A DNA stretch of 64,000 bases from a virus. The DNA is taken from IMG/VR virus record IMGVR_UViG_3300029253_000304. One strand, written 5' to 3'. The first letter of the stretch is position 1. The number at the start of each line of letters is the position of its first letter. The notes beneath the pieces were generated by a model. It had not been told where the DNA came from. It worked only from the letters and a program-made list of their open reading frames with translations, and searched no databases. Below, in pieces: positions 15,090 through 64,000 of the stretch. The translations under genes were made by a program, and so were the position numbers.

Positions 15090-15236
15090 TTCTTAGACGA
15101 TACCCTTTTCCCGACTTTCGAAAGAAAGTCGGGTGTCTCACAAAAAAAGCCAGCACCTCCACGGGGTGTGAGATGGAAATGTGCAAAATCTTCTGCACAG
15201 CTGAGACTGGCTCGATTCAGGAAGGAGTGGTGTAAA

Positions 15237-20656: not shown

Positions 20657-20802
20657 CTGATTCGCTCCATGCGGGTCAGGAACCACACAAATCGACAGCC
20701 TCCGCGCGGCGTGTGGTGGACAGTGCCCGAATCCTGCTACCGGGCAGCGACGAATGTCGATAATCTCATATTTCTTTTTTTAATACAAAGGAGACAAATA
20801 CC

Positions 20803-21939: not shown

Positions 21940-22094
21940 CTGAATCCCGGCCACTTGCTTTTTCCGGCAAGTGGCCGGATACCGCGCATGTCATCAGCCT
22001 TCTCGCGGCGCGTGGTGAGCAACTGCAAAAATTGCAGGCCAATGATGACTTTAGTTGAAAATGAATTTATTAAGTGGTGACGAGGTGATTCTTT

Positions 22095-41369: not shown

Positions 41370-41727
41370 TTTGACGCCCTCCTGCGATTAAAATTATTAA
41401 CTTTCCCGGGCTTCGTTTGCAACTTTGTAAATAAAAGTTTCGTTCTGGAAAACACGGTGGAAAATTGACACCTCCCACGATTGAAATCGTGGGATTCCTG
41501 GGCGGCGCGGCAAGGTTCATCGCCAAATCGTGTCTGAAACAGCGAGTTATGCGGTTTCCCATCATCCGCTACGGGTGTAGCGCATGACGAGCATCCAGCC
41601 AAAATGGTTGACCAACATACTTGTCTGCATTCCCAGTTCTTTTAAGTGCATCCTCCGAAGGGAGTTTCACCTCTTGCGAGGCAGCTCTTTAACGAGGGAG
41701 TGTCGAGCCCCCGGGAAACTATTATTT

Positions 41728-43464
41728 TTAGAACCCTACGCTTGCAGGAAGGTAGCTTTTATCCTTCTGCAAGCGCTTTATTGTATTTTCGTGCATCACT
41801 AAGAATGCAGGAAAAGCTGAGTTAAGAGCTTTTGTATTGTATTCCAAAGATTCAGTATCTATATATTCAAGCAGAAAAGCGGAATACAGGTCACGCTGAA
41901 CTATATCGCCGCTGCGGAGACGAGCCATTCGTTCGGAAAGCCTCTTCTTGGTGTAGCTTTCATCTGTATGGTCAAATTGCGAGGCTTTTGTTTCAAAGGT
42001 GCTGACTTTGATAACACTGCCGTCATAACGATTGGCTTTTTTGTTCAGGATGGAAATAAACATTGCGGGGGCGCAACGGCTCAACGATTTGCCAAACCGT
42101 TTTTTTGTATGTGCTCTACCGGTTTTTGGATTGACTTTCGTTTCCTTGCTGCGCTTTTGCAAGGCTTTGTAGTTCATATCTTCAACCACGAACTCGTCGC
42201 CATGCTGCAGCAATTCGTTGGCAAGGATGTTGTGCTCCATCTTGCGGATATCCGCCAATCGGCGGTTTAAGTCACGCAGTTTTGCTTTCAAACGGAAATA
42301 GCGCTTGCTGTACTTCCAGTCACGCCTTTGTTTGTGACCATGCTTGCGCTTTAACCGTTTTATTGTACCATCAGAATTAAAATATTGCGGGTTTGTAGCG
42401 CGGCGTGAACGGTCCATTGCTCGCTGTGTACGAGCGATTTCGTTCACGAGGCTTTTGGCTTGCGCTCTTGCTGATGGCGCAAGAACTCTCAAATCGCAGA
42501 TATCTTTACCACTAATGGCAAGCGTTTGCGTGCCGATATCAAGACCTATGCGCCCTTGATTGACAGGATGCTTCATCACGCCGTTGCTATCGCATTTGAC
42601 GGGAGGATACCCTTCCAAAACAAGTTGAGCATAATACTTCCACTTATTGCGAACCCACTTACGAGTAATGCGGCAGTATTTTACTCCACATTTGAGAGCT
42701 TCCTGCTGATATTTTCCTGTCTGAGTTTTAGGATTACGCAACACAACAGGAAATTCATGCTTTCCGTACACAATGCGCAGGTTGCCTTTTCCGATAGTGG
42801 GTTTTATTTTTGCGATAGCGGCAGCAATTTCAGCTTCCATTTGTGGTTTTACCTCATCAGGAAGAACGACTTTCTTATCGTCTTTAGGGTCAGGCCGCCC
42901 GTACATATCATCGTATCGCTTCTCAACGGCTTTTTGCGCCTTGCGCTTAGCCGACTCTATATTGCTTGTAGTGAGGTTTGCCGGGCGAAGCACGATACCG
43001 GTAGCATTATTCTTACCGGAAATCGAAGCTACATCTTCCAGCTTTTTATAATGGACAGCCTTCCCTTTGCTGAAGAAAAAGCCTTCCCAAGCCGTCCAGA
43101 CGGCGGATGCAACATTCTGTGCTACATGAGAATTGATGGCAAAGTGCTTCGCGTACGGCACAACCAACTTATGAAGAGCATCTTCAGAAAAACGATATTC
43201 TTTAAGCATCTTTTCGCGTTGCTTAAAGAGTGTTTTTTGCTCATCGCTGTCGGGAGTTGCTTTTGCAATAGCTGCCATCAACTCACGATACTTGCGCGTC
43301 TTGCGCAATTGATGCCACATTTTTGTAGTCACACTCACAAGCTGATTGTAGATGACACCACACTTCTTGAACTCCTTATACAGATAGTCTTGCTCGTTGA
43401 GACTTATATCAAGAGGCAATGTCAATACAAATGATGGCGTGCTATTCTTGCTCCCAAAAGCCAT
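41728..43464 (-). CDS. tnpB: long TnpB-like RuvC nuclease (578 aa) without a canonical zinc finger
   Basis: RuvC-I GLDIGTQ, RuvC-II VVEDMN, RuvC-III QRDLYSAFLL; no Cys residues where CxxC...CxxC is normally found. Confidence 0.7.
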   Translation of the reverse strand: MAFGSKNSTPSFVLTLPLDISLNEQDYLYKEFKKCGVIYNQLVSVTTKMWHQLRKTRKYRELMAAIAKATPDSDEQKTLFKQREKMLKEYRFSEDALHKLVVPYAKHFAINSHVAQNVASAVWTAWEGFFFSKGKAVHYKKLEDVASISGKNNATGIVLRPANLTTSNIESAKRKAQKAVEKRYDDMYGRPDPKDDKKVVLPDEVKPQMEAEIAAAIAKIKPTIGKGNLRIVYGKHEFPVVLRNPKTQTGKYQQEALKCGVKYCRITRKWVRNKWKYYAQLVLEGYPPVKCDSNGVMKHPVNQGRIGLDIGTQTLAISGKDICDLRVLAPSARAQAKSLVNEIARTQRAMDRSRRATNPQYFNSDGTIKRLKRKHGHKQRRDWKYSKRYFRLKAKLRDLNRRLADIRKMEHNILANELLQHGDEFVVEDMNYKALQKRSKETKVNPKTGRAHTKKRFGKSLSRCAPAMFISILNKKANRYDGSVIKVSTFETKASQFDHTDESYTKKRLSERMARLRSGDIVQRDLYSAFLLEYIDTESLEYNTKALNSAFPAFLVMHENTIKRLQKDKSYLPASVGF

Positions 43465-43468
43465 AAAG

Positions 43469-43870
43469 TTACCCTCCTCTCTTTTTTTGCTGTTCTACAT
43501 AGTGTTGAATCGTAGCGGTAGACACATCTCCGGCAGTGCTTACAAAATAGCTGCGTGTCCACATTTGCATAACCGTGTCAGGAAAAAACTCTTGCTTGAG
43601 TATCCTGCCGGTGGTTCCTTTAATAATTTTCATGATTTCTGCAGCACTTAATGTAGGCGGAGCATTCACGAAAAGATGACAATGGTCTATATGACATTCC
43701 ATTGCCAGTATCACAATGTCGTTTTGCTCACAAATTTGAGTTACAAGTTCCTTGAAACGAGCTTCAAACCCATCCACCAGAAATAATTTTCTCCGATAGC
43801 GTGGGCAAAACACAAAGTGATAATTTATCATAGAAACGGTTGCTTTTGTGCGCCTATAATCTTTTTTCAT
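43469..43870 (-). CDS. tnpA: IS200/IS605 TnpA (HUH Y1 transposase)
   Basis: HUH motif HIDHCHLFV; catalytic Tyr region TRSYFVSTAG; 133 aa; 4 nt from tnpB. Confidence 0.85.
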   Translation of the reverse strand: MKKDYRRTKATVSMINYHFVFCPRYRRKLFLVDGFEARFKELVTQICEQNDIVILAMECHIDHCHLFVNAPPTLSAAEIMKIIKGTTGRILKQEFFPDTVMQMWTRSYFVSTAGDVSTATIQHYVEQQKKRGG

Positions 43871-48273: not shown

Positions 48274-49640
48274 AGAGCGAGCTTACCGCAAGCCGCAGCT
48301 CTTGATAGAGGCTCGCTCTCCACAGACTTTAAGATTCGGTCGTCCTGACCGTACTGTTCGCCTGTGGTTATGAGGCGGCTGGCGTAGCCAGCATGTCCAT
48401 TCCTTTCTTTAGAATGTTTTCTGCTGCATTTTTATCCCTATCGTGTGATGTGTTACATTTCGGACAGACCCAATGCCGAACATTGAGGTTTTTTACCTCT
48501 TTGTTTTGGTAGCCGCAGCAAGAGCAGGTCTGGCTGCTTGGATAGAAGGTTGGTATTTTTACAACTACTCTTCCTGCCCAACTGGATTTATAATCAAGTT
48601 GTCGGAAGAACTCTCCCCAAGAAACATCGGAAATACTTTTAGCAAGGTTATGATTGCGAACCATACCATTTACATTGAGGTCTTCTACACAGATGATTTG
48701 GTTTTCTTTCACCAGTGTGGACGACAACTTATGTAGGGTATCTTTTCGTTTGTTGGTTATTTTTTCGTGGCAGCGAGCCACCTTGATGCGCTGCTTTTCC
48801 CAGTTGGCAGAGCCTTTCTTCTTGCGTGACAGTTTTTTCTGCTCACGCTTTAGTTTAGCTTCCGCTTTCTGTAGATACTTATGGTTTGGATGTTCATTTC
48901 CATTGCTGTCAACAGCAAAAGATTTGATGCCAACATCCAAGCCGATAGCGACATTCTTAACAGGAAGCGGTGCTACTTCTACTTCGCAAAGAATGCTTAC
49001 ATAGTATTTTCCGCTTGCTGAACGACGGATTGTTGCCTTGCAAATACGACCTTCAATGTTGCGGCTTTTGCGATAGCGCACCTTTCCAAGTGTAGGAAGC
49101 TGAATGTACTTATCGTCAACTTTAATGCTTTTTGCTTTAGTAGTTGTATAACTTTCTTCTCCTCTTTTTCGTTTGAATTGAGGGAATCCTTTACCGTCTT
49201 TGAAAAAGCCTTTATAGGCATTATCTAACTGACGACAGCTATATTTGAGTGCTTGGCTATCCGCTTCAGCAAGCCGAGGAAGATAGGTCTTCATCTGAGG
49301 AAGTAGATTTTGCGTATCAATATAGCTCATGCTTTCGCCGCGCCGCCTATAGGCTTTTATTCGCCTATCTAATATAGAGTTATATATAAAGCGGCAGCAG
49401 CCGAGCGTTTTATTGATTTTTACTTCCTGCTCTTCTGTAGGCTCTAGCCGAAATTTATAGCCTTTATGTACTTTCAAGGTGATTCACCTCCTTTATGGAT
49501 TTTTGTACTTGTGAATTGGTCAAACCCCCGGAAAAAGTTGAATAGCCTGTTTTTCTCCTCCCACAATTCTTTCTAACATAATTATATCATATTTTACAGA
49601 TGGACGGGCCAAAATCGCAACTTTGTTCATGAATACTTAA
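48270..49640 (-). mobile_element. IS1341-like tnpB-only element, approximate bounds; its right end abuts the HD-domain gene start
   Basis: tnpB with a 9 bp-stem hairpin (AGAGCGAGC...GCTCGCTCT) in the 94 bp between the tnpB stop and the HD gene start. Confidence 0.35.
48368..49477 (-). CDS. tnpB: TnpB (IS200/IS605-family OrfB), IS1341-type solo copy
   Basis: [12 protein letters not shown]-terminus; RuvC blocks; CSCCG...CPKCN zinc finger; [10 protein letters not shown]; RBS AAGGAGGTG. Confidence 0.85.
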
Positions 49641-49838
49641 ACTTTATGCACGAGATTTATTGTTGCCCTAATATATAAAACTAGAGCCCCGTCATCTTGG
49701 ATGGGGCTCTTGAGTTGTAACTGGAGGTGTATCTCATTTTGTGCCAGGGGTATTGTATGGTAGTTTTCGAAAATGAGTGCAAAAAAACAAACACCAGAAG
49801 TCGAACTCAAAAATATCTTAGTCTTGGCAAGTTTACCC

Positions 49839-49866
49839 TTGCGCCGCTGTGCGAACTTCGTACAAT
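49839..49866 (+). promoter_or_regulatory. conserved-spacer promoter (a): TTGCGC-cgcTGTGCGAACTTCG-TACAAT
   Basis: member of the seven-copy TTGCnn-16-xAxAAT family with TGTGCGAAYTG in the spacer. Confidence 0.5.
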
Positions 49867-49969
49867 AAGAATTGTACAAGAGAAACGGCAAGAGACATTT
49901 GTAGTGATTGTAGTTGGTCGCCACGAATCGATGCCGTGTCTGCTTGCGCATAATTACCTCTTTTCGAAG

Positions 49970-50004
49970 CCCACAGGCCATTCTCTCACCTGTGGGTTTT
50001 GTTT
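49970..50004 (+). terminator. intrinsic terminator ~105 nt downstream of promoter (a)
   Basis: stem CCCACAGG...CCTGTGGG followed by TTTTGTTT. Confidence 0.5.
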
Positions 50005-50015
50005 ATTGCGAAATC

Positions 50016-50043
50016 GTGCGAATTGCAGACAATTAAAGACAGA
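50016..50043 (+). promoter_or_regulatory. conserved-spacer promoter (b): TTGCGA-aatCGTGCGAATTGCA-GACAAT
   Basis: same family; lies ~60 nt upstream of omega-RNA-like copy 1. Confidence 0.5.
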
Positions 50044-50094
50044 GCGATTGTGAGATGGGGCGATACCGATGCAGTAGGGATGAGAATCTTAGCA

Positions 50095-50410
50095 GCTAAA
50101 AGAGTCAACAACCCCGCCTAAACCGGTTCGCCGGTTATAGACGGGGCTTGCGGGGCAACCTGTAAGCCCAGTTGATTAGCCTAAGCCCATTGCTCCGGCA
50201 GTGGGGAAAACTACGTTGTGTACTAATAATATAGGCACCTTATCCATGCTCCACAAGTGGTGAGCTCTGCAGGCGTTTCGTTAAACATCTCCGAGGGGAG
50301 GAGAAGTGCGAGCGTCATGTCGAAAGGCTAAAACAGTGCATAACATTGGCGAAGTGGACCACAGGACGCAAGTCCTGACTTATAGTTTTATTACTATTTT
50401 ACGAATGGAG
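50095..50410 (+). ncRNA. IscB-type omega-RNA (HEARO-like) scaffold, copy 1, with no IscB gene downstream (flotillin gene instead)
   Basis: ~85% identical in blocks to 63180-63545; a compensatory pair change inside a GNRA-capped hairpin (CAGGAC-GCAA-GTCCTG here, CAGGGC-GCAA-GCCCTG in copy 2); shared 3' end carrying an RBS. Confidence 0.5.
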
Positions 50411-50421
50411 AAACAAAAATT

Positions 50422-52065
50422 ATGGTATATGTGATTGGAATTGTAGCAGCCCTGATTATTCTCTTTGGATTTCTCTGCTACAAGAAAGCTCCGCCCACGG
50501 AGGCTATCGTTGTAACTGGCTTTGGCCTGTCTAAGCCTAAAGTGGTTTGCGGAAAGGGTACATTTGTTCTGCCCGTTCTTCAACGGGCTGACCGACTGAA
50601 TATGCGCCTTTTGAAAATCGATGTCAAGACTCCTGAAACAGGTGTTAAGACGAAGAACGGCGTAAGTCTCTGGATTGACTCTGTTGTCACGATTCAAGTC
50701 TACAGCGAAAACTCTACCGTTCTGGATGAAGAAGTGAAGGCATCCGGTCTGAAAGACGCCAAGGCGTACATCATGTCCCGACAACAGGCAGCCATCTCGA
50801 ACTTTCTGGGCATGAACGAGCAGGGCATCAATGAGAAAGTTAATGACGTTCTGCAGGGCAATTTGCGTGAGATTGTCTCTGACATGACCGTTGACCAAAT
50901 TCTGACGAACCGCAAGCAGATGGCTGTGAGCGTTATCGAGAATGCTCGCCCCGACCTTGCTAAGATGGGACTTGAGGTCGTGACTTTTAATGTCCAGGAC
51001 ATCAGGGATGCAGTGGATGTTCAAGGCCACAATCACGGCGTTATCGAAGCTATCGGCATTGAACAGGAAGAGCTTGTGAAAAAACAGGCTGAAATTGCCC
51101 GTGCTCAGGCTGCCCGTGATGTAGCCTGCGCGAAGGCCGATGCTGAGATGGCTGCAAATGCCAAGGAAGTTGAAGCGCAGACTGCGATTGCAAAACGCAA
51201 CAATGAATTGCAGCTCGCCAAGGCAAAGCTGAAAGCTGAAGCTGATAAAGCTGCGGCTGACGCAGATGCTGCCGGTCAGATTCAGATGAATCTCCGCGCC
51301 AAAGAAATCAAAGAAGCGGAAGCGGATGCTGAAATCGCCAAGCAGAAGAAAATGGTAGACCTTGCCGCACAGGAAGCCGAGGTCCAGCAACGCAAACTGG
51401 ATGCGGAAGTCCGCAAACAGGCAGATGCTGACTTGTACCGCCGCCAGAAAGAGGCAGAAGCCAAGAAATATGAGGCGGAACGTGCAGCTGAGGCACAGAA
51501 GTTCTCCAAGCAGCAGGAAGCAGAAGGCATTGAGCTTGTCGGTAAGGCAGAAGCTGAAGCGATTCGTCAGAAAGGCTTGGCTGAAGCGGAAGCCATGAAA
51601 CAGAAAGCAGAGGCATATAAGCAGTATAACGATGCGGCTGTGGCTGAAATGCTCATCAAGGTTCTTCCTGACATTGCCAAGAGCGTGGCTCAGCCTTTGT
51701 CCAGCATTGATAAGGTTTCTATCATTGGCGGTGATGCCTCCGGCGTATCCGGCGTTTCCGGGAACGTTCCTATCCTGATGGCTCAAACCATGCAGACGGT
51801 GAAAGAAGCGACTGGCATTGACATGGGCGAAATTGTCCGTGCCAACAGCATCCAGGCAAAGACAAACCGCAACATCAACATTATGACTCAATGTGAACAG
51901 CCTGAGAATAACAAAGAGAAAGGAGGTGCCAAGGCAATGGAACGCGTAGAAGGCGGCTATCTGATTCATGAGAAGAATCTCAACGGTGAGGAAGTCACTC
52001 ATTTTCGACCGGATGTGACCGAAGAAGAGAAGGCTATCATGAAAGACAAAAAGGCCAAAGATTAA
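50422..52065 (+). CDS. flotillin-like SPFH/band-7 protein (FloT/YuaG-like)
   Basis: N-terminal TM then SPFH domain; long AEAEA-rich coiled-coil; 547 aa. Confidence 0.85.
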   Translation: MVYVIGIVAALIILFGFLCYKKAPPTEAIVVTGFGLSKPKVVCGKGTFVLPVLQRADRLNMRLLKIDVKTPETGVKTKNGVSLWIDSVVTIQVYSENSTVLDEEVKASGLKDAKAYIMSRQQAAISNFLGMNEQGINEKVNDVLQGNLREIVSDMTVDQILTNRKQMAVSVIENARPDLAKMGLEVVTFNVQDIRDAVDVQGHNHGVIEAIGIEQEELVKKQAEIARAQAARDVACAKADAEMAANAKEVEAQTAIAKRNNELQLAKAKLKAEADKAAADADAAGQIQMNLRAKEIKEAEADAEIAKQKKMVDLAAQEAEVQQRKLDAEVRKQADADLYRRQKEAEAKKYEAERAAEAQKFSKQQEAEGIELVGKAEAEAIRQKGLAEAEAMKQKAEAYKQYNDAAVAEMLIKVLPDIAKSVAQPLSSIDKVSIIGGDASGVSGVSGNVPILMAQTMQTVKEATGIDMGEIVRANSIQAKTNRNINIMTQCEQPENNKEKGGAKAMERVEGGYLIHEKNLNGEEVTHFRPDVTEEEKAIMKDKKAKD

Positions 52066-52185
52066 AGACAACATGAAAAGAGGGTGACTCGAAAGAGCCA
52101 TCCTTTTTTCTGTTGTGACGCAAACGAAAAGTTCATGGTAGCCATCCAATTTGGGTGACTGTCTTTTTTGCATGTTAAGGCTTTG

Positions 52186-52213
52186 TTGCTGAATTGTGCG
52201 AATTGAAGATAAT
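52186..52213 (+). promoter_or_regulatory. conserved-spacer promoter (c): TTGCTG-aatTGTGCGAATTGAA-GATAAT
   Basis: same family. Confidence 0.5.
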
Positions 52214-52267
52214 TAAAAACAAAAGATGCTTTGTATCAAATCGATTGAAACCGAAGAGGTGAAGTTA

Positions 52268-53071
52268 ATGCTCGGCGTGAGTTTGATTATCATAGCAGCG
52301 GCTATAGTCTACATGGTCGAAACCTATATCAGCACCTATTACACTATCGAATACATGCACGGAACATCGCTGTTCCTTATCCTCCTTGCGAAATATGGCA
52401 CGCCAGTCCTGTTCCTGCTGCTCTGCGCCTACATTGCATATCGCAAATTCCTCAAAAAGCAGAAAGCTGCGGCTTCTGCTGCATCTGAACGGCCTACAAG
52501 CAAAGAAGAGCTGTATACCAACAAAATTCAAACGGCAGTAAAGACAAAAAGCGTCTTCTCAGAGCAGGCTGACCAAATGCTGTATCAGGTACGGCGCTTC
52601 GGGCAAAAAATGGCCGTTGCCTACAGCATGACCCAGGATAGCAAGACATCCGGGGAACAAGCCAAGTGCCTAACGTTATTGGAATCCGCAGAACGTATCT
52701 TCTATGACCGACTGGATGACGCGATTCGCTCGGCTTCAATGTTTGATGAAACGGAATACAAGGCTTTCTGTCAAGGCTCTATCTCGTTTGGAAACAAAGA
52801 AGAAGCGCAGAAAAAGAAAGAAATCTACAATGGTATCGTAAGTACCGTGGATAAGGTAGTTCATGACAATGAGCGCTTAATCCTCCGATTGGATTCTTTA
52901 GCATACGCTCTGAACCAACGTTCTGCCCAGAATCCGTGGGATACAGAGGTTGTGCTCGCAATGTCAAAGCTCGATGCTGTCATTAACAAGACGACGCAGG
53001 ACATCGAGCAGGATGAAGTAATCAGCCGCGAGGCTATGAAGCAATATGATATTTTGAAAGGAGAGTCTTAA
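52268..53071 (+). CDS. membrane protein with two N-terminal TM helices and a coiled-coil cytoplasmic region, unknown function
   Basis: ATG 52268 with GAGGTG RBS (the ORF track start 52226 lies only 6 nt from the predicted TSS). Confidence 0.45.
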   Translation: MLGVSLIIIAAAIVYMVETYISTYYTIEYMHGTSLFLILLAKYGTPVLFLLLCAYIAYRKFLKKQKAAASAASERPTSKEELYTNKIQTAVKTKSVFSEQADQMLYQVRRFGQKMAVAYSMTQDSKTSGEQAKCLTLLESAERIFYDRLDDAIRSASMFDETEYKAFCQGSISFGNKEEAQKKKEIYNGIVSTVDKVVHDNERLILRLDSLAYALNQRSAQNPWDTEVVLAMSKLDAVINKTTQDIEQDEVISREAMKQYDILKGES

Positions 53072-53072
53072 C

Positions 53073-54767
53073 GTGACGAAGAAAAATATTTTCCCTGTAG
53101 TTGCAACCATCGCCGTGGTGGGTGTTGTTCTCGGAGTATTTTCGATGACGGTGATGAGGGACTCGAATGTCAGCATCAGCACGATGACTTCCGAGCAGGC
53201 ATATGCCAACTTGAGCAGCAAGATGAAACGTATCGGGGTGCAGGAAGTATCCGTCAATCCGCAGCAGCTTGATGTATCGGAGTTTCTGGACGCAAAGGAT
53301 GAACTGCCCGACATTGAATCCTCCTACCCATTCGTGGTGGAGGGGAACGGTGATGTCAACATTGAAGTCTTCTCTTCCGGCGAGAAAGCAGCAGAATCCG
53401 GCTCCGATTCTTTCCTGACAAGCATGGCAAAAAAGTTCAATGCCCAGCACAACAAGACTTCCGGAGACAAGACTATGAGTGTCTCCCTGCGCTCCGTTCC
53501 GTCCGGTACGGCGGCTGAGTACATCTCGACGGGAAAGTATCAGCCCGAGTGCTATACCCCCTCAAATACGCTCTTTGGCGAGCTGGTGAAGAACGAGGGC
53601 GTAGAATTGACCGTTGAGGCTGACCGTCTGGTCGGCAATGTGGCGGGTATTCTCGTATCAAAGAAGACAGGGGATATGCTTCGCTCTGAATACGGTGAAG
53701 CGTCTGTTTCTTCCGTTCTGAACGCAACCATCGATGGCAAACTCATGATGGGATACTCGAACCCCTACACAAGTGCTACGGGTCTTAATTTTCTGCTTGA
53801 GGCTCTTGCGAGCAGCGGCAGCGATACGATTGTCGATACGGCTGCTGTTGAGAATTTCCAGAAATTTCAAGCGAACGTCCCTCTCGTATCCTTCACGACC
53901 CAGCAGATGGTCCAGTCGGCAGACAAGGGCATCGTGGACGGCGTTGTCATGGAGTATCAGTCTTATCAGAATGACCCGACCTTACAGCGCAACTACGAGT
54001 TCATCCCGTTCGGTGTGCGGCATGATAACCCCCTGTATTCTATTGGAAGCATCTCGGCCGAAAAGAAGGAAGTTATTGCTGCGTTCGTTTCCCTCTGCGC
54101 CCAGAATCAGGCAGAAGCGACGAAGGACGGGTTCAATGGTCTTGACGACTATGCTTATACAGGCAAGGCATACGACGGCAACACCATCGCACAGGCTCAG
54201 AGTGTCTGGAAAGAAGAGAAGGATTCCGGTATTCCTATTGTGGCAGAGTTCGTTGTCGATACTTCCGGCTCGATGCGCGGCGAACCCCTGAATGCCCTGA
54301 AAACCGCGATGATAAACACCATCCAGTATATCAATGACGACAACTATATCGGCATCATTGGCTTTGATTCAGATGTCAGGGAATACCTGCCCATTGACCA
54401 GTTCTCTCTGACCCAGAAAACTCTGTATAAGGGTGCCGTGAACTCCCTCGATGCGAACGGCAGCACCGCAATGTACAACGGTCTTTGCGTTGCTATGGAC
54501 CGCATCTACCAGAAATCTCAGGAACTGGGTGGGAATTGCACGCCCATCATCTTTGTGCTCACGGACGGTGACAACAATACCGGATATGACTTCTCCGATA
54601 TGAAGAACATCATTGCCGGTATGGATATCCCTATCTATACCATCAGCTACAACTACGCGGCAGACAGCCTCTCGGAACTCGCGTCAATCAATGAGGCGGC
54701 TGCTATCGTTGGTAACAGCGAGGATATCACCTACAAGCTCCGCAACTTGTTCAACGCGGAGATGTAA
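53073..54767 (+). CDS. membrane-anchored von Willebrand factor type A (vWA) domain protein
   Basis: N-terminal TM; C-terminal vWA with MIDAS DTSGSM...T...D and the later block IIFVLTDGDNN. Confidence 0.7.
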   Translation: MTKKNIFPVVATIAVVGVVLGVFSMTVMRDSNVSISTMTSEQAYANLSSKMKRIGVQEVSVNPQQLDVSEFLDAKDELPDIESSYPFVVEGNGDVNIEVFSSGEKAAESGSDSFLTSMAKKFNAQHNKTSGDKTMSVSLRSVPSGTAAEYISTGKYQPECYTPSNTLFGELVKNEGVELTVEADRLVGNVAGILVSKKTGDMLRSEYGEASVSSVLNATIDGKLMMGYSNPYTSATGLNFLLEALASSGSDTIVDTAAVENFQKFQANVPLVSFTTQQMVQSADKGIVDGVVMEYQSYQNDPTLQRNYEFIPFGVRHDNPLYSIGSISAEKKEVIAAFVSLCAQNQAEATKDGFNGLDDYAYTGKAYDGNTIAQAQSVWKEEKDSGIPIVAEFVVDTSGSMRGEPLNALKTAMINTIQYINDDNYIGIIGFDSDVREYLPIDQFSLTQKTLYKGAVNSLDANGSTAMYNGLCVAMDRIYQKSQELGGNCTPIIFVLTDGDNNTGYDFSDMKNIIAGMDIPIYTISYNYAADSLSELASINEAAAIVGNSEDITYKLRNLFNAEM

Positions 54768-55188
54768 TCCAAAAGCGCGGTTTTGTCCGCGCAGCTGCTC
54801 CAAAAGACAGCCTCCACACGGCGAGCAGCGGGAACATGCTGGTCGGAAACGGCACGGTCGTCAGCTGCCAGTGCCACTCGATGGATGAGACGGTCGATAT
54901 GGTCGCCGCCTTGTACAATGGCAGAAGCAGCGCAAGCATAACCATCCTGCAAAAATATATGCCGTTCATCTTTTTGGGTGGGCGGCTTTTTGTTTTGTGA
55001 ATACAGCGATTCAGTGGCGAAGCGAGCCGATTTTACCAGCAGTTTGATATTCTGCGGCATCGGCGTTTTGCGGCATCCAGCGAGAGAATATCGTTTGCTT
55101 CGATGACGAGGCGGCATTTTCGCATTATAAGGTCCTGTTCGAGACCTTCAAGGAGACCTGCTCCGACAATGTCTCCTATAAGGCAGTC

Positions 55189-56625
55189 GTGAACACCATG
55201 AACCAGGAAGATTATCTGAAAGAGAACATCAAAGAAGTGCCCGTCTTTCAGTCTATTGAAAAGCAGAAGCTTGTCTTTCTGGAACAGGCACAGCCTGAGG
55301 ATGAGGTCGAATACGAGATAGTTGCCGATGTCAAGAAAATGCAGGAACTCGTCAAGCCAATCATGCCTAAGATGCCGGTACAGGCGAATCGTATTGTAGT
55401 GGCAGCGGAACCGATGCGCGTTTTCGGGAAACGATATACCGAGGTTCGGCGTGTGGCAGCTGAGGCAGTTAAGCAGCTCCCAAAATTACATATCGACTAT
55501 GATGCCGGGACCATGACCTTCAACGACGAGAATATCGACCTCAATCCGAATCTCAGCGAGGTGGCAAAGAACATCAAGAGCATCCAGAAGTTCTTCTCAG
55601 GCATGGACTACTTTTACGGCGATGTCGAACAGGCCAAGAAGGACTACTTCAAGTACATGACCTGGTATCTGGCTACTCCGTTCATGGCGTATCTGCGGTA
55701 TTTCGCATCGAGGAACAACTACGATACGAAGCTGTTCCCGATGTACGGCGTTATATACGGCGACTCAAACGGCGGCAAGACGACATTTATAAAATTTCTT
55801 GTCAAACTCATGTGCGGTGAGACCGTTAAGATGAACACAACGGAGGATTTCACAGCCACAAGAATCGACGGCCTCAAACGAGTTTGTGAGGGACTGCCGC
55901 TGAACATCGACGACCTCGCCAAGACCCAGTTTCAGAACCATTCAGAACGGGTAATCAAGAACGATGAATGGGGTATCTCTGACAGGCTCGTGAACTATCC
56001 TGCTGTATCTATCACATCGAATAAAATTACCTCGCTGACAAAAGACCTCTCGAAACGCGCTATCATCTGTCGAATTGGTGCTAAAATCGACAACGAGCGC
56101 GGTGCCAAAAACTCGAAGCGTGTGAATGAGAGTATGTCGGAGCTGACAACCGCGTTCTATGGCGAATATGTCCGCCGAATGCTTGTTTGCATCGATGAGA
56201 TGACGACGGAAATGCGTGAAAATGCGAATGGCAAGGAATACTTCCCGGATATCTTCTACGCTTCGTCTAGTGTCATTGCAGATATCTTCGAGGCATGCGG
56301 AATCGATTTGCCGGACTATGTGCGTATCCTGTACTATAACGACTATATGGGTGATGAGAGCATTGGTCGTGCTGCAATTGAGAAAATCGAACTGGCATGG
56401 CAGGCTGACCCGAGCAAGTTCCGGGTTGATAAGAAGCAGAACAGGCTCATTTACTCCTATCCGCCGGATGGACCGTGGTACGAACTGAAATACATTGCAG
56501 ATGAGCTGCCGAACTCCCTCGAAGCAGAGATTTCTGGCGGCAACCAGCTTATCATGAACTACGAGCAGGCACAGGAATTGTTCGGCATCAAGTTTCGGCG
56601 CTGGCTGGGCATCTTTAACCTCTAA
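55189..56625 (+). CDS. P-loop NTPase of uncertain family (possibly P4/D5-type SF3 helicase-like)
   Basis: Walker A GDSNGGKTTF; Walker B-like LNIDDL; ~170 aa unknown N-terminal domain. Confidence 0.5.
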   Translation: MNTMNQEDYLKENIKEVPVFQSIEKQKLVFLEQAQPEDEVEYEIVADVKKMQELVKPIMPKMPVQANRIVVAAEPMRVFGKRYTEVRRVAAEAVKQLPKLHIDYDAGTMTFNDENIDLNPNLSEVAKNIKSIQKFFSGMDYFYGDVEQAKKDYFKYMTWYLATPFMAYLRYFASRNNYDTKLFPMYGVIYGDSNGGKTTFIKFLVKLMCGETVKMNTTEDFTATRIDGLKRVCEGLPLNIDDLAKTQFQNHSERVIKNDEWGISDRLVNYPAVSITSNKITSLTKDLSKRAIICRIGAKIDNERGAKNSKRVNESMSELTTAFYGEYVRRMLVCIDEMTTEMRENANGKEYFPDIFYASSSVIADIFEACGIDLPDYVRILYYNDYMGDESIGRAAIEKIELAWQADPSKFRVDKKQNRLIYSYPPDGPWYELKYIADELPNSLEAEISGGNQLIMNYEQAQELFGIKFRRWLGIFNL

Positions 56626-56676
56626 TATGCATGGCAGGTTCTTTTCGGAGCCTGCCTTCTTATTTCGCAAAAATAG

Positions 56677-56704
56677 TTGCCCATTTGTGCGAATTGCAGA
56701 CAAT
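56677..56704 (+). promoter_or_regulatory. conserved-spacer promoter (d): TTGCCC-attTGTGCGAATTGCA-GACAAT
   Basis: same family. Confidence 0.5.
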
Positions 56705-60161: not shown

Positions 60162-60364
60162 AAGGGTAGCGGCCAAAGGCAAGAGGCAAGACTCCGTGGC
60201 TGTCAGTTGCAGAACGTCTTCACACCTGAATTCTTGAATTTTGCCAGTGCTTTGATGAATAATGAAGAGCGCACGCCCCGTCTATAGCCGTAAGGCTTAG
60301 GCGGGGTTAGCTCGTGTTTTGGAGCAGAAATCAGAAATTATTGTTTTCCGTTCTGATAAAGGTA

Positions 60365-60392
60365 TTGCCTGGTTGTGCGAACTGGATACTAT
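60365..60392 (+). promoter_or_regulatory. conserved-spacer promoter (f): TTGCCT-ggtTGTGCGAACTGGA-TACTAT
   Basis: same family; drives the TnpB-like gene. Confidence 0.5.
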
Positions 60393-60417
60393 AAAATTAT
60401 AGTAAACTGCAAGGGAG

Positions 60418-61911
60418 GTGAGTGCTTTGAATATTACATCCAGCTATCAGGTGAGAATCGTCAATTGCAGCGTAAACCTCAATGAGACTGTTCGCATTTA
60501 TCGCAAGGCACTTGCCTACCTGATTGGTGTTGTCAATGAAAACTGGGATGCCGTCAAACGCATTGATACCGGCAATCTTGAGCAGCAGCACTATATTGAC
60601 AAGCTAGTTCATGGCACCAAAAATCATGAGGCTAAGTATCCTGAATTTGATAAGCAGTTCTATAAGTACCCGTCGTATTTGCGCCGTGCAACTATTACGG
60701 CCGCCATTGGCGCGGTAAGCGGCTATCACAGCAATCTAGCTAATTGGGAAATGTCCGACAAAAAGGACAAACAGCCTACTCTTCAAGTAGATAGAAAAGC
60801 TTTTCCTACATTCTTCCGCGTTGATATGTTCCTTGTGGACGGCACACCCGAAAAGGTGAAAGTCGTAAAAAATCCTAAACCGAAGGATGAACTCACGGCA
60901 GAAGAAAAGAAAATCGAGAAAGCAAAACGCAAAGCTGCTGAATTACAGAACTCTCAAAATGAACTGACGGTTTTGAGTAATCACTGTACCGTTCGCTTGA
61001 AAGTTTTCTATAAAAACGACTGGGTGTGGGCAACTGTCACGCTGCGTAAAACGGATATTGCCTATTTACGCAAATACTGGATGCACGCTTGCTCGTCAGC
61101 CCCTATGCTCGAAAAGCGTTTCGGCAAATACAGCCTGCGCTTTGCTTTTGAGGAAAATACTACTCTTAGTGATACTCCTATCGATAAGCAGCGCGTCTGC
61201 GCCGTCGATTTAGGTCTCAATACCGATGCGGTGTGCAGCATCATGACCGCTGATGGAACTATCCTTGCCAGGAAGTTTATCAACTTCCCGAGTGACAAAG
61301 ACCATCTGTATCATGTACTTAACCGCATCAAGAAGTTCCAAAGGCTGCATGGGTCCCGGGAAGCGCATAACTTTTGGGCCTATGCAAAGCGCGTTAATGA
61401 TGAATTGTCCAAAAAGATTGCCGCCGCGATTGTAGAATTTGCGGTCCTCTATTCTGCCGATGTGATTGTTTTTGAGCACTTAGATTTCAAAGGCAAGAAA
61501 TCATCGTGCAAAAAGCAAAAAATCCAGATGTGGCGTAAAAATGGTATCCAGCGCATTGCGGAACATAAAGCGCACCGCTGCGGTATTCGTATCTCGCACA
61601 TCTGCGCTTGGGGGACTAGCAAACTTGCGTATGACGGCAGCGGCGAAGTGAAACGCGCACCAGATAACCATTCCCTTGCTACTTTTACAAGCAGCAAACA
61701 ATACAATGCGGACTTGAATGCGTGCTACAACATCGGCGCACGCTATTTCATCCGTGAGGTAACAAAACCCATGTCAAAAAAGGCATGGTCTCAATGCAAG
61801 GCTGAAGTTCCTGACATTGAGCGTAGAACCCAATGCACTTTACACTCTCTCAGACAGCTGCATGCCTTTTTGAGCACTCCAAAAGAGGCTCAGCCTGAAG
61901 CAGCCGCCTGA
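60418..61911 (+). CDS. TnpB-like RuvC nuclease (497 aa) with degenerate zinc finger
   Basis: RuvC-I AVDLGLNTD, RuvC-II VIVFEHLDF, RuvC-III YNADLNACYNIGARYF; only a partial C...C where CxxC...CxxC is expected. Confidence 0.7.
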   Translation: MSALNITSSYQVRIVNCSVNLNETVRIYRKALAYLIGVVNENWDAVKRIDTGNLEQQHYIDKLVHGTKNHEAKYPEFDKQFYKYPSYLRRATITAAIGAVSGYHSNLANWEMSDKKDKQPTLQVDRKAFPTFFRVDMFLVDGTPEKVKVVKNPKPKDELTAEEKKIEKAKRKAAELQNSQNELTVLSNHCTVRLKVFYKNDWVWATVTLRKTDIAYLRKYWMHACSSAPMLEKRFGKYSLRFAFEENTTLSDTPIDKQRVCAVDLGLNTDAVCSIMTADGTILARKFINFPSDKDHLYHVLNRIKKFQRLHGSREAHNFWAYAKRVNDELSKKIAAAIVEFAVLYSADVIVFEHLDFKGKKSSCKKQKIQMWRKNGIQRIAEHKAHRCGIRISHICAWGTSKLAYDGSGEVKRAPDNHSLATFTSSKQYNADLNACYNIGARYFIREVTKPMSKKAWSQCKAEVPDIERRTQCTLHSLRQLHAFLSTPKEAQPEAAA

Positions 61912-62147
61912 TGTAGATGTACTGTGTTGCGACAACTTTGCGGGAGACTAACCCTTATGTGGTGACCAATGCCGTCAGGCGTTGTGAGCTAAGTTTGGGC
62001 TGTATCTCTACCTTCGGGTAACGCAGAGACTTACCGTGGGGCTACAACCCACGGAGAAGCCCCGTTTAAGCCGCAAGGCTTAGGTGAGGAGGTTCACATT
62101 CTGCGGGCATTGACAAACAGCCAAAAATGTGCTTAGGTTAAAAATCC

Positions 62148-62882: not shown

Positions 62883-62910
62883 TTGCTAATCTGTGCGAAT
62901 TGCGTACAAT
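62883..62910 (+). promoter_or_regulatory. conserved-spacer promoter (g): TTGCTA-atcTGTGCGAATTGCG-TACAAT
   Basis: same family; upstream of small ORF, omega-RNA copy 2 and the IscB-like ORF. Confidence 0.5.
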
Positions 62911-62997: not shown

Positions 62998-63204
62998 ATG
63001 TACGGTTTGTCAGAAGAAAGCTTAACGATTGTTGGTATTATTTTGATTATTGTTGGTGTCGCTATGATTGGTTGGGGATTTGAATGGAATCAGGACATTA
63101 CCAATGATAAACGGGTCGGAACCGTTGTCAGAGACATTGGCGTTATGGTTTTGGCAACCGGCATCATATTTGTGATGCAGCGGGCAGTCAACAACCCCGC
63201 CTAA
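62998..63204 (+). CDS. small two-TM membrane protein; last five codons and stop lie in the conserved omega-RNA 5' region
   Basis: ATG 62998 with RBS; hydrophobic helices; C-terminal ...VNNPA* encoded by GTCAACAACCCCGCCTAA. Confidence 0.35.
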   Translation: MYGLSEESLTIVGIILIIVGVAMIGWGFEWNQDITNDKRVGTVVRDIGVMVLATGIIFVMQRAVNNPA

Positions 63205-63545
63205 ACCGGTTCGCCGGTTATAGGCGGGGCTTGCGGGGCAACCCGTAAGCCCGGTTGATTAGCCTTGGTGAACGGCAACTTCGGTTGCTGCGAACTCCGT
63301 TATGCATTTGATGAGCAATCATCTTCATAATATAGGCACCCCGATTATGCTCCACAAGTGTCGGGCTCTGCGGGCAGTGTATGTGTCAATGACGCAAGCC
63401 GTTGATATGTATTACGTTAAAAATCTCTAAGGGTAGGAGATGTGCGGCTGCCATGCCGAAAGGCTAAAACAGTGCATAACATTGGCGAAGTGGACCACAG
63501 GGCGCAAGCCCTGACTTATAGTTTCATTACTATTTAACGAAAGGA
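63180..63545 (+). ncRNA. IscB-type omega-RNA (HEARO-like), copy 2, immediately upstream of the IscB-like ORF
   Basis: conserved with copy 1; the 5' ~15 nt differ between copies (guide-like); GNRA-capped hairpins; 3' end carries the RBS of the downstream ORF. Confidence 0.6.
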
Positions 63546-63554
63546 GTGCCTTGC

Positions 63555-64000
63555 ATGAGCACTTGCGTTTGTGTTCTCAGCAACAGTGGTGAACGCTTAA
63601 TGCCTACCTTCCGTCTTGGCAAGGTACGCCGACTCTTGAAAGACGGAAAAGCAAAAATCGTTAAGCATCATCCTTTTACTATTCAACTGCTGTATGACAG
63701 CAAGACAAACACTCAACCCATCGAAATCTGCGAAGACGTGGGCTACAACTACATCGGCATCAGCGTGAAAAGCAAATCTCACGAATATGTGTCTGCCCAG
63801 TATGATACATTGCAGGATGAGAAGGAACATCACGATGATTGCCGCAAGTATCGCCGCACACGCAGAAACAGACTGCGTTACCGTAAACCGCGCTTCGATA
63901 ACCGCAAGCGCAGCGAAGGTTGGCTTGCACCTTCTCTGGAACATAAGAAGCAGCTGAATATCCGTCTTATCGAACGGTATGTATCTGTAATTCCGATTAC
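63555..64000 (+). CDS. iscB: IscB-like protein, N-terminal part (3'-partial at window end)
   Basis: N-terminal PLMP-type motif (RLMPTFRLGKVRRLLKDGKAKIVKHHPFTIQLLYD); Arg-rich segment then RFDNRKRSEGWLAPS, as recalled for IscB/Cas9-ancestor proteins; open to window end. Confidence 0.65.
   Translation, partial: MSTCVCVLSNSGERLMPTFRLGKVRRLLKDGKAKIVKHHPFTIQLLYDSKTNTQPIEICEDVGYNYIGISVKSKSHEYVSAQYDTLQDEKEHHDDCRKYRRTRRNRLRYRKPRFDNRKRSEGWLAPSLEHKKQLNIRLIERYVSVIPI

What the first reader, a model, noticed from the sequence alone, without database searches (positions are those of the whole stretch)
50016..54767. Orphan omega-RNA scaffold fused in place to a flotillin - membrane protein - vWA operon
Copy 1 of the omega-RNA-like element keeps the conserved 3' end and an RBS, as in copy 2. 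However, the start codon 12 nt later opens a 547 aa flotillin (SPFH) gene instead of IscB. Downstream follow a coiled-coil membrane protein and a membrane-anchored vWA protein. Either an IscB gene was replaced by this operon, or an omega-RNA scaffold has been exapted as a 5' leader or regulatory RNA for a membrane-microdomain module. Both possibilities are unusual.
Basis: partly seen in the sequence, partly recalled or inferred. Interest (0 to 1): 0.7.

Follow-up and report, generated by a model that had tools for sequence, protein, structure and literature searches.

The report
Leftover IscB guide RNA before flotillin
A real but orphaned IscB guide-RNA (omega-RNA) scaffold lies in the leader of a flotillin operon in a large gut phage-like element. 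It is a recent remnant of a transposon insertion, most related genomes lack it, and such stand-alone guide RNAs are already known.

Summary
Window 50104-50404 is a full-length HEARO/omega-RNA scaffold (Rfam RF02033, 91 bits, above gathering). It has no iscB gene. The flotillin ATG (50422) follows 11 nt after a GGAG. A second copy (63187-63546) precedes a real IscB.

In 80 related sequences (79 fetched loci plus this window) from human-gut metagenomes, 57 have the same promoter, Shine-Dalgarno and flotillin gene with no omega-RNA. Another 22 carry the orphan, all with the same right junction (20 also share the left junction and 307-nt length). None has iscB at this site. So the operon did not replace iscB, and the RBS belongs to flotillin.

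The orphan is 93% identical and collinear to an IscB-linked 306-nt omega-RNA found elsewhere in the same element family. Its left edge is a normal transposon end. Its right edge is a crossover between the iscB SD (ACGAAAGGAG) and the flotillin SD (AATATGGAG). No distal transposon end remains.

Best reading: an IscB insertion sequence landed in the flotillin leader, then an SD-to-SD deletion removed iscB and the distal end.

It may still serve the resident IscB in trans, which is a known behaviour of stand-alone omega-RNAs. No evidence supports exaptation as a flotillin regulator.

The parts
50006..50033 (+). Promoter-like motif TTGCGA-16 nt-GACAAT containing GTGCGAATTGCAGACAAT. It is native to the flotillin leader and is also present in empty alleles.
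   Evidence: The motif GTGCGAAYTKSNNACAAT occurs 6 times on the + strand against 0.02 expected. Its context is shown. It is present in the consensus of 50 empty alleles. Promoter function is inferred, not shown.
50088..50103 (+). Guide-equivalent flank CTTAGCAGCTAAAAGA, the 16 nt immediately 5' of the scaffold. This is native leader sequence.
   Evidence: It is contiguous with the empty-allele sequence up to AAAAGA. The rule that the guide is the flank outside the omega-RNA-bearing transposon end comes from PMC10691335 and Meers et al..
50104..50404 (+). Orphan IscB omega-RNA scaffold (HEARO). It starts with the transposon terminus GTCAAC and the subterminal hairpin, and includes the 3' hairpin CAGGACGCAAGTCCTG (50362-50377). 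It ends at ...TTTTACGA.
   Evidence: Rfam 91.2 bits. It is an insertion relative to empty alleles. It is 92.8% identical and collinear to the IscB-linked omega-RNA L106:7921-8226. The hairpin was flagged as terminator-like and is kept by a compensatory change in copy 2.
50405..50424 (+). Native flotillin ribosome-binding region ATGGAGAAACAAAAATT plus ATG. This is the right junction of the insertion. ATGGA also matches the minor transposon-adjacent motif.
   Evidence: Identical sequence occurs in empty alleles of the L023/L071 type. ATGGA flanks the distal end of full elements in L036 and L107.
50422..52065 (+). Flotillin (SPFH) gene, 547 aa, with an N-terminal hydrophobic anchor.
   Evidence: Pfam Band_7 and Flot. 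NCBIfam FloT scores 269.7 bits, below its equivalog cut-off of 700. Hydropathy shows a hydrophobic stretch at residues 1-24. It is 84-86% aa identical to Gemmiger and Subdoligranulum flotillin.
52226..53071 (+). Membrane protein of unknown family, 281 aa. Relatives are called from 52268, giving 267 aa.
   Evidence: No hit in Pfam, NCBIfam or PADLOC. Two hydrophobic stretches at residues 9-38 and 47-71.
53073..54767 (+). Membrane-anchored vWA protein, 564 aa.
   Evidence: Pfam VWA at residues 393-552. PDB sequence matches cover only the VWA domain. Hydrophobic stretch at residues 4-31.
54794..54857 (+). Weak HDV-like ribozyme candidate 27 nt after the vWA stop codon. It may be a 3' processing site for the operon. 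Status uncertain.
   Evidence: RF02682 scores 27.8 bits against a gathering score of 44, E = 0.13-0.27. It is one of four such hits in intergenic gaps of the window.
63187..63546 (+). Copy 2: omega-RNA of an intact IscB element. Its guide-equivalent flank is 63171-63186.
   Evidence: RF02033 scores 50.7 bits over the full model. It is 99.6% identical to the full element in L013.
63555..64000 (+). IscB gene, first 148 codons, cut by the window end. It is 456 aa in relatives.
   Evidence: Pfam RRXRR and NCBIfam guided_IscB. The full-length 456-aa version is in L012-L016. It is 95% aa identical to the IscB that partners the short omega-RNA type.
43469..43870 (-). Y1 (IS200-type) TnpA transposase, the likely in-genome source of transposition for the non-autonomous IscB and TnpB elements.
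   Evidence: Pfam Y1_Tnp, 2e-33. Its role in moving the IscB element is inferred from Kapitonov 2016 and Meers 2023.

Best explanation
The orphan RNA is the omega-RNA-bearing end of a non-autonomous IscB insertion sequence (ISC type, IS200/IS605 family).

The host genome is a roughly 250-kb phage-like element of human-gut Oscillospiraceae. It carries at least five OMEGA nucleases and a Y1 TnpA.

Steps shown:
1. The flotillin operon with its own promoter motif and SD existed first.
2. About 300 nt of IscB-element sequence now replaces 6 nt (TTGAAT) of the leader.
3. The left edge is the normal element terminus. It is joined where IscB elements of this family normally insert, just upstream of an ATGAA-like motif (here TTGAA).
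4. The right edge joins ...TTTTACGA, the sequence just before the iscB SD, to ATGGAGAAAC, the flotillin SD.
5. No iscB and no distal end remain.

Steps inferred:
- A complete element of the short-omega-RNA subfamily inserted between AAAAGA and TTGAAT.
- One illegitimate recombination between the two Shine-Dalgarno sequences (A[A/T]GGAG) then deleted iscB, the distal end and TTGAAT.
- That deletion put flotillin back directly behind its promoter.
- Without the distal end TnpA can no longer excise the remnant, so it is a fixed relic. It has spread among haplotypes by recombination.

Likely present function (inferred):
- It is transcribed as part of the flotillin leader from the upstream promoter motif.
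- Its intact scaffold could be loaded by the resident IscB, which is 95% identical to the IscB that natively uses this scaffold type.
- That complex would carry the guide CTTAGCAGCTAAAAGA, which matches empty alleles.
- Its effect on flotillin expression is probably small or mildly attenuating, through the 3' hairpin.
For: - Empty versus filled alleles with exact junctions.
- All 22 filled alleles share the same right junction.
- The solo is 92.8% identical and collinear over 307/306 nt with the IscB-linked L106 omega-RNA, which continues ...TTTTACGAAAGGAG-TACCTTGC-ATG (iscB).
- Full elements end in ...CATAATT followed by ATGAA or ATGGA at at least five different sites. This matches the N|ATGA rule (PMC4810608) and the TTCAT TAM of GstIscB (Meers).
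- The element is mobile in this family. GTCAAC termini follow at least 10 different left flanks.
- No sequence resembling the distal end occurs anywhere in 50400-56000.
- An internally deleted sister element (L108) shows that such deletions happen.
- The RNA structure is intact, with compensatory differences.
- A Y1 TnpA is present in the window.
- IscB proteins that partner the short and long omega-RNA types are 95% identical.
Against: - No intermediate allele (full IscB element at this site) was found among 80 related sequences or in IMG/VR. The two-step history is therefore inferred.
- The insertion point is flanked by TTGAA, one base off the ATGAA/ATGGA seen at other sites. In GstIscB single TAM changes abolished cleavage. 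Both the original insertion and any present-day trans cleavage are therefore at a near-cognate site.
- It is a coincidence needing explanation that the deletion left the whole scaffold intact. Selection for flotillin translation explains the right endpoint but not the left one.
- There are no expression data.
Confidence: 0.75

Rival explanations
1. Guide-only homing element. The orphan is kept because, together with the IscB encoded elsewhere in the genome, it cuts co-infecting genomes that have the empty leader. Recombinational repair then copies the omega-RNA into them. This would give super-Mendelian spread without the orphan carrying its own nuclease.
For: - The scaffold is intact and a compatible IscB is in the same window.
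- The guide-equivalent flank matches empty alleles exactly in the L008/L071 type. It has one mismatch in the common type.
- Filled alleles sit on several flotillin haplotypes interspersed with empty ones.
- Empty alleles that match the guide and carry TTGAA are rare (about 4-6 of 57), as expected if susceptible alleles were converted.
- Stand-alone omega-RNAs work in trans.
- The homing logic was shown for IscB by Meers et al..
Against: - The motif next to the target is TTGAA or CTGAA, not ATGAA or ATGGA. IscB is TAM-strict in the one system tested.
- Haplotype mixing is equally expected from ordinary phage recombination.
- Sequence variability is not clearly concentrated at the target site.
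- Frequency is only about 22-27%.
Confidence: 0.2
2. Exapted cis-regulatory leader. The omega-RNA fold, or IscB binding to it, controls transcription read-through or translation of the flotillin-membrane protein-vWA operon.
For: - The RNA lies between the promoter motif and the SD, in the same position it holds before iscB.
- A conserved 3' hairpin followed by a U-rich stretch (50362-50400) could attenuate transcription.
- Solo alleles carry few mutations.
Against: - The leader is absent from 57 of 80 otherwise near-identical operons and from bacterial flotillin genes.
- A single origin and young age explain the low divergence.
- An unrelated 1.8-kb cassette occupies the same spot in L027. The site is therefore simply permissive.
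Confidence: 0.07
3. The operon is cargo. The flotillin operon was captured inside an IscB element in place of iscB and moves with it.
For: The omega-RNA lies directly upstream with iscB-like spacing to the start codon.
Against: - No distal-end hairpin or terminus occurs downstream of the operon or anywhere in 50400-56000.
- Empty alleles show the operon at the same locus without the RNA.
- The promoter motif lies outside (upstream of) the element end.
Confidence: 0.02
4. Assembly artefact. A repeat-induced chimera joined the omega-RNA of an IscB locus to the flotillin gene.
For: - The omega-RNA is a multi-copy repeat.
- Two short contigs (L056, L105) show the solo RNA with a different left flank, which could be chimeras.
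Against: - Identical junctions appear in 20 independently assembled contigs from different studies, many over 100 kb.
- The solo variant differs from the IscB-linked copy in the same window by 17% and two indels.
Confidence: 0.01

Closest known systems
Stand-alone (effector-less) omega-RNAs of OMEGA systems. Described by Altae-Tran et al. 2021, as summarised in PMC10691335 and PMC9581776.
   Same: An omega-RNA scaffold has no adjacent IscB, in a genome that also encodes a compatible IscB locus. Such RNAs were shown to work in trans.
   Different: The described ones are 'evidently mobilized'. This one lacks the distal transposon end and is seen at one site only (apart from two possible recombinants), so it is an immobile truncation. 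It lies inside an mRNA leader of a phage-like element. Trans activity was not tested here.
ISC / IscB insertion sequences of the IS200/IS605 superfamily (Kapitonov 2016, PMC4810608; Meers 2023, bioRxiv 10.1101/2023.03.14.532601).
   Same: It has the 5'-GTCA terminus and a subterminal hairpin doubling as the first omega-RNA stem. The guide is the outside flank. Insertion is next to an ATGA-like motif without target duplication. Orientation matches the upstream transcription. Termini are shared with antisense TnpB elements (window 38088).
   Different: It has no iscB and no distal end. Six nt of target are missing.
PATEs (palindrome-associated transposable elements), the protein-less derivatives of IS200/IS605 elements.
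   Same: It is a non-coding derivative of an IS200/IS605-family element.
   Different: PATEs keep both ends and stay mobile. L108 in a related contig is of that kind. The window copy has one end only.
HEARO RNA, Rfam RF02033.
   Same: Full-length match above the gathering score. The two lineage-specific stem-loops of copy 2 are absent, so the orphan is closer to the family consensus.
   Different: The 'associated ORF' of HEARO (the HNH/IscB gene) is missing.

Membership tests
HEARO / IscB omega-RNA (RF02033) | Sequence and structure match to the covariance model at or above the gathering score | tested here: met
   91.2 bits against a gathering score of 83, model positions 1-211.
HEARO / IscB omega-RNA (RF02033) | Located directly upstream of an IscB (RRXRR + HNH) ORF | tested here: not met
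   The next ORF is flotillin. No iscB remnant is present, with only 17 nt between the scaffold end and the ATG.
HEARO / IscB omega-RNA (RF02033) | Stems kept by compensatory changes relative to relatives | tested here: met
   17 of 66 predicted pairs show double-sided changes across 5 sequences. Examples are CCUUAUCC/GGUGAG versus CCCCGAUU/GUCGGG and GGAC/GUCC versus GGGC/GCCC. The sample is small.
HEARO / IscB omega-RNA (RF02033) | Binds IscB and guides DNA cleavage | not testable with these tools
   Only inferred, from 95% identity between the IscBs that partner the short and long scaffold types.
Intact ISC (IscB) transposon of IS200/IS605 | Two ends with subterminal hairpins | tested here: not met
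   The omega-RNA-side end is present. No match to the distal end (…CTATAGATGGGGTG…CATAATT) occurs in 50400-56000.
Intact ISC (IscB) transposon of IS200/IS605 | Insertion next to the family's transposon-adjacent motif, with no target duplication | tested here: inconclusive
   The empty allele reads AAAAGA|TTGAAT. Other sites of this element show ATGAA or ATGGA. There is no duplication, but 6 nt are lost.
Stand-alone omega-RNA (trans-acting) | Effector-less omega-RNA in a genome that also encodes a compatible effector | tested here: met
   IscB lies at 63555 onward in the same window. Compatibility is inferred.
Stand-alone omega-RNA (trans-acting) | Evidence of its own mobilisation (copies at several sites, both ends) | tested here: not met
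   All solo copies share one right junction. 20 of 22 also share the left junction and 307-nt length; L003 shares both junctions but has a 342-nt hybrid scaffold. L056 and L105 differ on the left only.
PATE | Both transposon ends, no ORF | tested here: not met
   The distal end is missing. In contrast, L108 has both ends.
Cis-regulatory leader of the flotillin operon | Conserved with the downstream genes across orthologous loci | tested here: not met
   Absent in 57 of 80 near-identical operons and in Gemmiger, Subdoligranulum, Parolsenella and Oribacterium flotillin loci.
Flotillin (SPFH) FloT | Band_7/SPFH domain plus flotillin C-terminal repeat region | tested here: met
   Pfam Band_7 at 78.9 bits and Flot at 38.8 bits. 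NCBIfam FloT equivalog scores 269.7 bits, below its cut-off of 700, so this is a family member but not the FloT equivalog.
Known anti-phage defence systems (PADLOC-DB 2.0) | Profile match of any of the three operon proteins | tested here: not met
   No hits for flotillin, the 281-aa protein or the vWA protein.

The most novel reading that the evidence does not exclude
The truncated, immobile omega-RNA is not inert. It would be transcribed from a strong phage promoter as the flotillin leader and loaded by the IscB encoded 13 kb away. The complex would cut co-infecting phage genomes that carry the empty leader. This would be a nuclease-less 'guide-only' gene drive in a phage population. A side effect would be to couple flotillin-operon expression to IscB occupancy of its leader.
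Probability: 0.15. Interest if true: 0.65.

Novelty: new member of a known kind. Interest (0 to 1): 0.3.

Why it matters
As it stands, this is a clean natural example of how stand-alone omega-RNAs arise. A single deletion between two ribosome-binding sites removes the nuclease gene and one transposon end, and leaves a complete guide scaffold behind a host promoter.

The filled, empty and recombinant alleles, and the parent element type, can all be recovered from public gut metagenomes. This makes the locus a convenient system for two questions:
- whether effector-less guides are used in trans by IscB during phage co-infection;
- whether OMEGA elements behave as homing drives in phage populations.

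It does not reveal a new kind of regulatory RNA or a functional link between omega-RNAs and flotillin-vWA modules.

Tried and rejected
- **Distal-end search.** I searched for the IscB distal end and for any iscB fragment in the window with blastn-short. I found nothing between 50400 and 56000. The only hits flank the 497-aa TnpB-like gene at 60276-60307 and 62069-62086.
- **Full IscB element at this site.** I found none in 80 related sequences. A gapped pattern linking the distal hairpin to the flotillin SD found none in IMG/VR. A left-junction pattern in IMG/VR returned only solos.
- **Defence-system membership of the operon.** PADLOC gave no hits.
- **INPHARED phage collection.** A distant blastn of 49500-56700 gave no match. 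The viral assignment rests on IMG/VR membership and a few PHROG hits.
- **Hypervariability at the guide/TAM site of empty alleles**, as a sign of nuclease pressure. Minor alleles do cluster there, but comparable variation occurs elsewhere in the 500-nt window, so I make no claim.
- **Flotillin haplotype clustering** to separate homing from descent. Filled and empty alleles are interspersed. This shows recombination but does not identify its cause.
- **'Empty site' for copy 2 (L002).** It is not a clean insertion. The IscB element replaces about 200 nt there, so I did not use it to define the TAM.
- **Altae-Tran 2021 and Weinberg 2009.** Neither could be read. I took their content from papers that cite them.
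- **TnpA-mediated aberrant excision at pseudo-sites (TCCAT / TCCTT).** I considered this as the origin of the right junction. I dropped it because no hairpin lies near the internal site.
Full report
**1. What is in the sequence**

Rfam's HEARO model (RF02033, the RNA now known as the IscB omega-RNA) matches window 50104-50364 on the + strand over its whole length. The score is 91.2 bits against a gathering score of 83. It is the only Rfam family reaching its gathering score in the 64 kb.

With a relaxed threshold a second full-model match appears at 63187-63500 at 50.7 bits.

A repeat search and a pairwise alignment show where the two copies are similar. Similarity starts at GTCAAC (50104 / 63187) and ends at GGAG (50410 / 63546), with unrelated sequence on both sides. 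Identity is 83%. Copy 2 has two extra stem-loops of 17 and 35 nt. Several stems differ by compensatory changes.

Copy 2 is followed after 8 nt by an ORF (ATG 63555) that runs off the window. That ORF is an IscB N-terminus (Pfam RRXRR 6e-41; NCBIfam guided_IscB 5e-42).

Copy 1 is followed after 11 nt by ATG 50422 of a 547-aa Band_7/Flot protein. Next come a 281-aa protein with two hydrophobic stretches and no family match, and a 564-aa protein with one N-terminal hydrophobic stretch and a C-terminal VWA domain.

**2. The genome it sits in**

The exact flotillin protein is encoded on many human-gut metagenome contigs of 160-296 kb. It is also on IMG/VR viral contigs.

The window carries the following:
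- exonuclease V/Dda-helicase, DNA-polymerase and weak terminase matches;
- a Mor-type activator;
- a promoter-like motif TTGCnn…GTGCGAAyTGCAGACAAT, six times on the + strand against 0.02 expected. One lies at 50006-50033, 70 nt before the orphan RNA. Another lies at 62893, before copy 2.

I infer a large phage or phage-like element. There is no match in the INPHARED phage collection.

Its flotillin is 84-86% identical to chromosomal flotillin of Gemmiger formicilis and Subdoligranulum. In those bacteria it has different neighbours, and neither the omega-RNA nor the two downstream genes are present. This points to an Oscillospiraceae host and a host-derived gene.

The window also holds the following OMEGA-type genes:
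- two canonical TnpB genes, 38247-39386 (-) and 48368-49477 (-);
- two larger TnpB/Cas12-like genes, 41728-43464 (-) and 60418-61911 (+);
- a Y1 TnpA, 43469-43870 (-).

Several of these are present or absent among otherwise collinear relatives.

**3. The decisive comparison: empty alleles**

I collected 79 related loci containing the flotillin start and classified them, with the window, by what lies upstream.

| Allele | Count (of 80, including the window) |
|---|---|
| Empty: promoter motif, leader and SD, only 58-61 nt from the upstream GATGCAGTAGG anchor to the ATG, no omega-RNA | 57 |
| Orphan omega-RNA | 22 |
| Unrelated 1.8-kb two-gene cassette at the same spot (L027) | 1 |
| iscB at this site | 0 |

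At least one contig is present twice (L001 = L040). L001-L010 were selected for an identical flotillin protein. In the other 69 loci the orphan is in 15 (22%).

The closest empty allele (L071 type) reads GCAGCTAAAAGA-TTGAAT-ATGGAGAAACAAAAATTATG. The filled allele reads GCAGCTAAAAGA-[GTCAAC…TTTTACGA]-ATGGAGAAACAAAAATTATG.

Three conclusions follow:
- The operon, its promoter motif and its Shine-Dalgarno are older than the RNA.
- About 300 nt of IscB-element sequence replace 6 nt of leader.
- The 'conserved RBS' is flotillin's own.

All 22 filled alleles share the right junction, which indicates one origin.

**4. Where the 300 nt came from**

All IscB-linked omega-RNAs first recovered were of the 358-360-nt copy-2 type, at at least 10 different left flanks. 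The element is therefore actively mobile in this family.

Searching IMG/VR with copy-1-specific segments found IscB-linked omega-RNAs of a short type (L106, L107).

L106:7921-8226 is 306 nt. It is collinear with the orphan and 92.8% identical, and nearly identical over the first 166 nt. It continues …TTTTACGAAAGGAG-TACCTTGC-ATG into a 456-aa IscB.

That IscB is 95% identical to the one that partners the long omega-RNA. It is 94% identical to the 148 residues visible in the window.

The orphan is thus a member of a bona fide IscB-linked scaffold lineage. This explains its compensatory differences from copy 2.

**5. Ends and target motif**

Full elements end …CTATAGA(T/C)GG(G/T)GT…(C/A)A(T/A)AATT. 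They are followed by ATGAA (L012-type, L015, L106, L108, L008/L019) or ATGGA (L036, L107).

The distal hairpin resembles the first omega-RNA hairpin.

These features match three published observations:
- Kapitonov's ISC termini (5'-GTCA…) and N|ATGA target (PMC4810608).
- The TTCAT transposon-adjacent motif of GstIscB read on the other strand.
- Meers et al.'s finding that the omega-RNA lies at the end opposite the TAM and that IscB elements follow the orientation of upstream genes.

At the flotillin site the left junction abuts TTGAA (one base from ATGAA). The right junction abuts ATGGA.

No distal-end sequence exists between the orphan and 56000.

The right junction is a crossover between the iscB SD region (ACGA|AAGGAG) and the flotillin SD region (GAAT|ATGGAG), which share 5 of 6 nt.

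A related contig carries an internally deleted, two-ended derivative (L108: the omega-RNA 5' two-thirds joined to the iscB 3' end). This shows that such deletions occur in this family.

**6. Most likely history and mechanism**

- Shown: insertion polymorphism, a canonical left end, an SD-to-SD right junction, and absence of iscB and the distal end.
- Inferred: a complete short-type IscB element, moved in trans by a Y1 TnpA such as the one at 43469-43870, inserted between AAAAGA and TTGAAT in the flotillin leader, in the orientation of transcription.
- Inferred: one illegitimate recombination between the two SD sequences then removed iscB, the distal end and TTGAAT. This restored a short promoter-to-flotillin distance.
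- Lacking the TAM-side end, the remnant cannot be excised.

Filled alleles occur on several flotillin haplotypes interspersed with empty alleles. Mosaic scaffolds exist: L003 is copy-1-like at the 5' end and copy-2-like at the 3' end, and L056 and L105 have a different left flank. The copies therefore recombine with each other and the allele has moved between backgrounds. Some short contigs could be assembly chimeras.

**7. Present function**

No tool here measures expression.

By position, the RNA would be transcribed from the promoter motif at 50006-50033 as the first 300 nt of the flotillin mRNA. This is the same arrangement as omega-RNA then iscB.

The conserved 3' hairpin (50362-50377) followed by a U-rich tract scores as terminator-like. 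It could attenuate read-through.

The scaffold is intact and a near-cognate IscB is encoded 13 kb downstream. Stand-alone omega-RNAs have been reported to act in trans with IscB (PMC10691335, PMC9581776).

The guide-equivalent flank CTTAGCAGCTAAAAGA matches empty alleles, exactly in a minority and with one mismatch in the majority. So IscB could in principle cut empty genomes during co-infection.

Against this, the adjacent motif is TTGAA or CTGAA rather than ATGAA or ATGGA. IscB was intolerant of single TAM changes in the one system tested.

I rate a maintained homing role at about 0.2 and a regulatory exaptation at under 0.1.

**8. Comparison with the known, and verdict**

The RNA is a member of HEARO/omega-RNA by model score and structure. 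It fails the 'adjacent IscB ORF' feature.

It is not an intact ISC element or a PATE, because it has one end only.

It fits the described class of stand-alone omega-RNAs, except that it shows no sign of its own mobility.

No recurrent link between omega-RNAs and flotillin-vWA modules exists. The association is a single polymorphic insertion event.

The finding is real but largely explained: a decayed IscB insertion with a neat SD-to-SD junction, in a phage-like genome crowded with OMEGA elements. Interest is modest. Its main value is as a tractable natural case for testing trans use of orphan guides.

Noticed in passing
window 15135-15214, 20682-20761, 21981-22049, 54794-54857 (all + strand): Four sub-threshold matches to the Faecalibacterium HDV-like ribozyme (RF02682), at 32.1, 34.2, 39.4 and 27.8 bits against a gathering score of 44. 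Each lies in an intergenic gap just after a stop codon. In the first three the unmodelled P2 pairing covaries (GUCAUCA/UGAUGAC, AUCGACA/UGUCGAU, AGCCAG/CUGGCU), so they are probably real self-cleaving ribozymes that cut the polycistronic transcripts. The fourth lies 27 nt after the vWA gene and is the weakest.
   Followed up: partly
window 49849, 50016, 56687, 57898, 60375, 62893 (+ strand): A recurring promoter-like motif TTGCnnnnnnGTGCGAAyTGCAGACAAT appears six times on one strand, against 0.02 expected. In relatives, IscB elements are often inserted 10-70 nt behind such motifs. L033 and L065 are behind the 57898 copy and L008 is behind the 56687 copy. This fits omega-RNAs depending on outside transcription.
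   Followed up: partly
window 38088-39386 (-), 41728-43870 (-), 48368-49477 (-), 60276-62086 (+): Four more OMEGA-type elements are present.
- TnpB 38247-39386, whose outer end (38088) starts GTCAACAACCCCC like the IscB omega-RNA end.
- A 578-aa TnpB/Cas12f-like gene with an adjacent Y1 TnpA.
- TnpB 48368-49477, absent from L001-type relatives.
- A 497-aa Cas12/TnpB-like gene, absent from L001-type relatives. It is flanked by hairpins like the IscB distal-end hairpin (60276-60307 and 62069-62086).

   Followed up: partly
window 49849-50004 (+): One copy of the promoter motif is followed about 100 nt later by a strong hairpin plus T-run (CCCACAGG…CCTGTGGGTTTTGTTT, 49970-50004). It sits directly upstream of the flotillin promoter motif and could be a small RNA or micro-ORF unit. 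It is conserved in relatives.
   Followed up: no
L027:11480-13290: An unrelated 1.8-kb cassette of two genes (254 aa and 182 aa, not examined further) is inserted at the same point of the flotillin leader (…TTGAATATGGA|…|ATGGAGAAAC). The spot therefore accepts insertions generally.
   Followed up: partly
L108:1882-2260; L105:1108-; L056 (- strand) 1032-: L108 is a PATE-like, two-ended derivative of the IscB element in which most of iscB is deleted. L105 and L056 carry the solo omega-RNA plus flotillin with a different left flank. They are either rearrangements by recombination between omega-RNA copies or assembly chimeras.
   Followed up: partly
window 62998-63204 (+) and L002:19569-19965: Copy 2 of the IscB element is inserted in the last codons of a 65-68-aa two-TM protein gene, changing its C-terminus. 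Relative to L002 it replaces about 200 nt, including a terminator and the start of the next gene. IscB insertions in this family are therefore often accompanied by adjacent deletions. L008 is a similar case: there the IscB element, together with about 145 nt resembling window 41463-41607, occupies the place of the Mor gene.
   Followed up: partly
window 50422-52065 versus L086, L090: The flotillin is 84-86% aa identical to chromosomal flotillin of Gemmiger formicilis and Subdoligranulum, but with a 45-aa C-terminal extension. It is joined to two genes not found next to the bacterial copies. It looks like a host gene captured by the element.
   Followed up: partly
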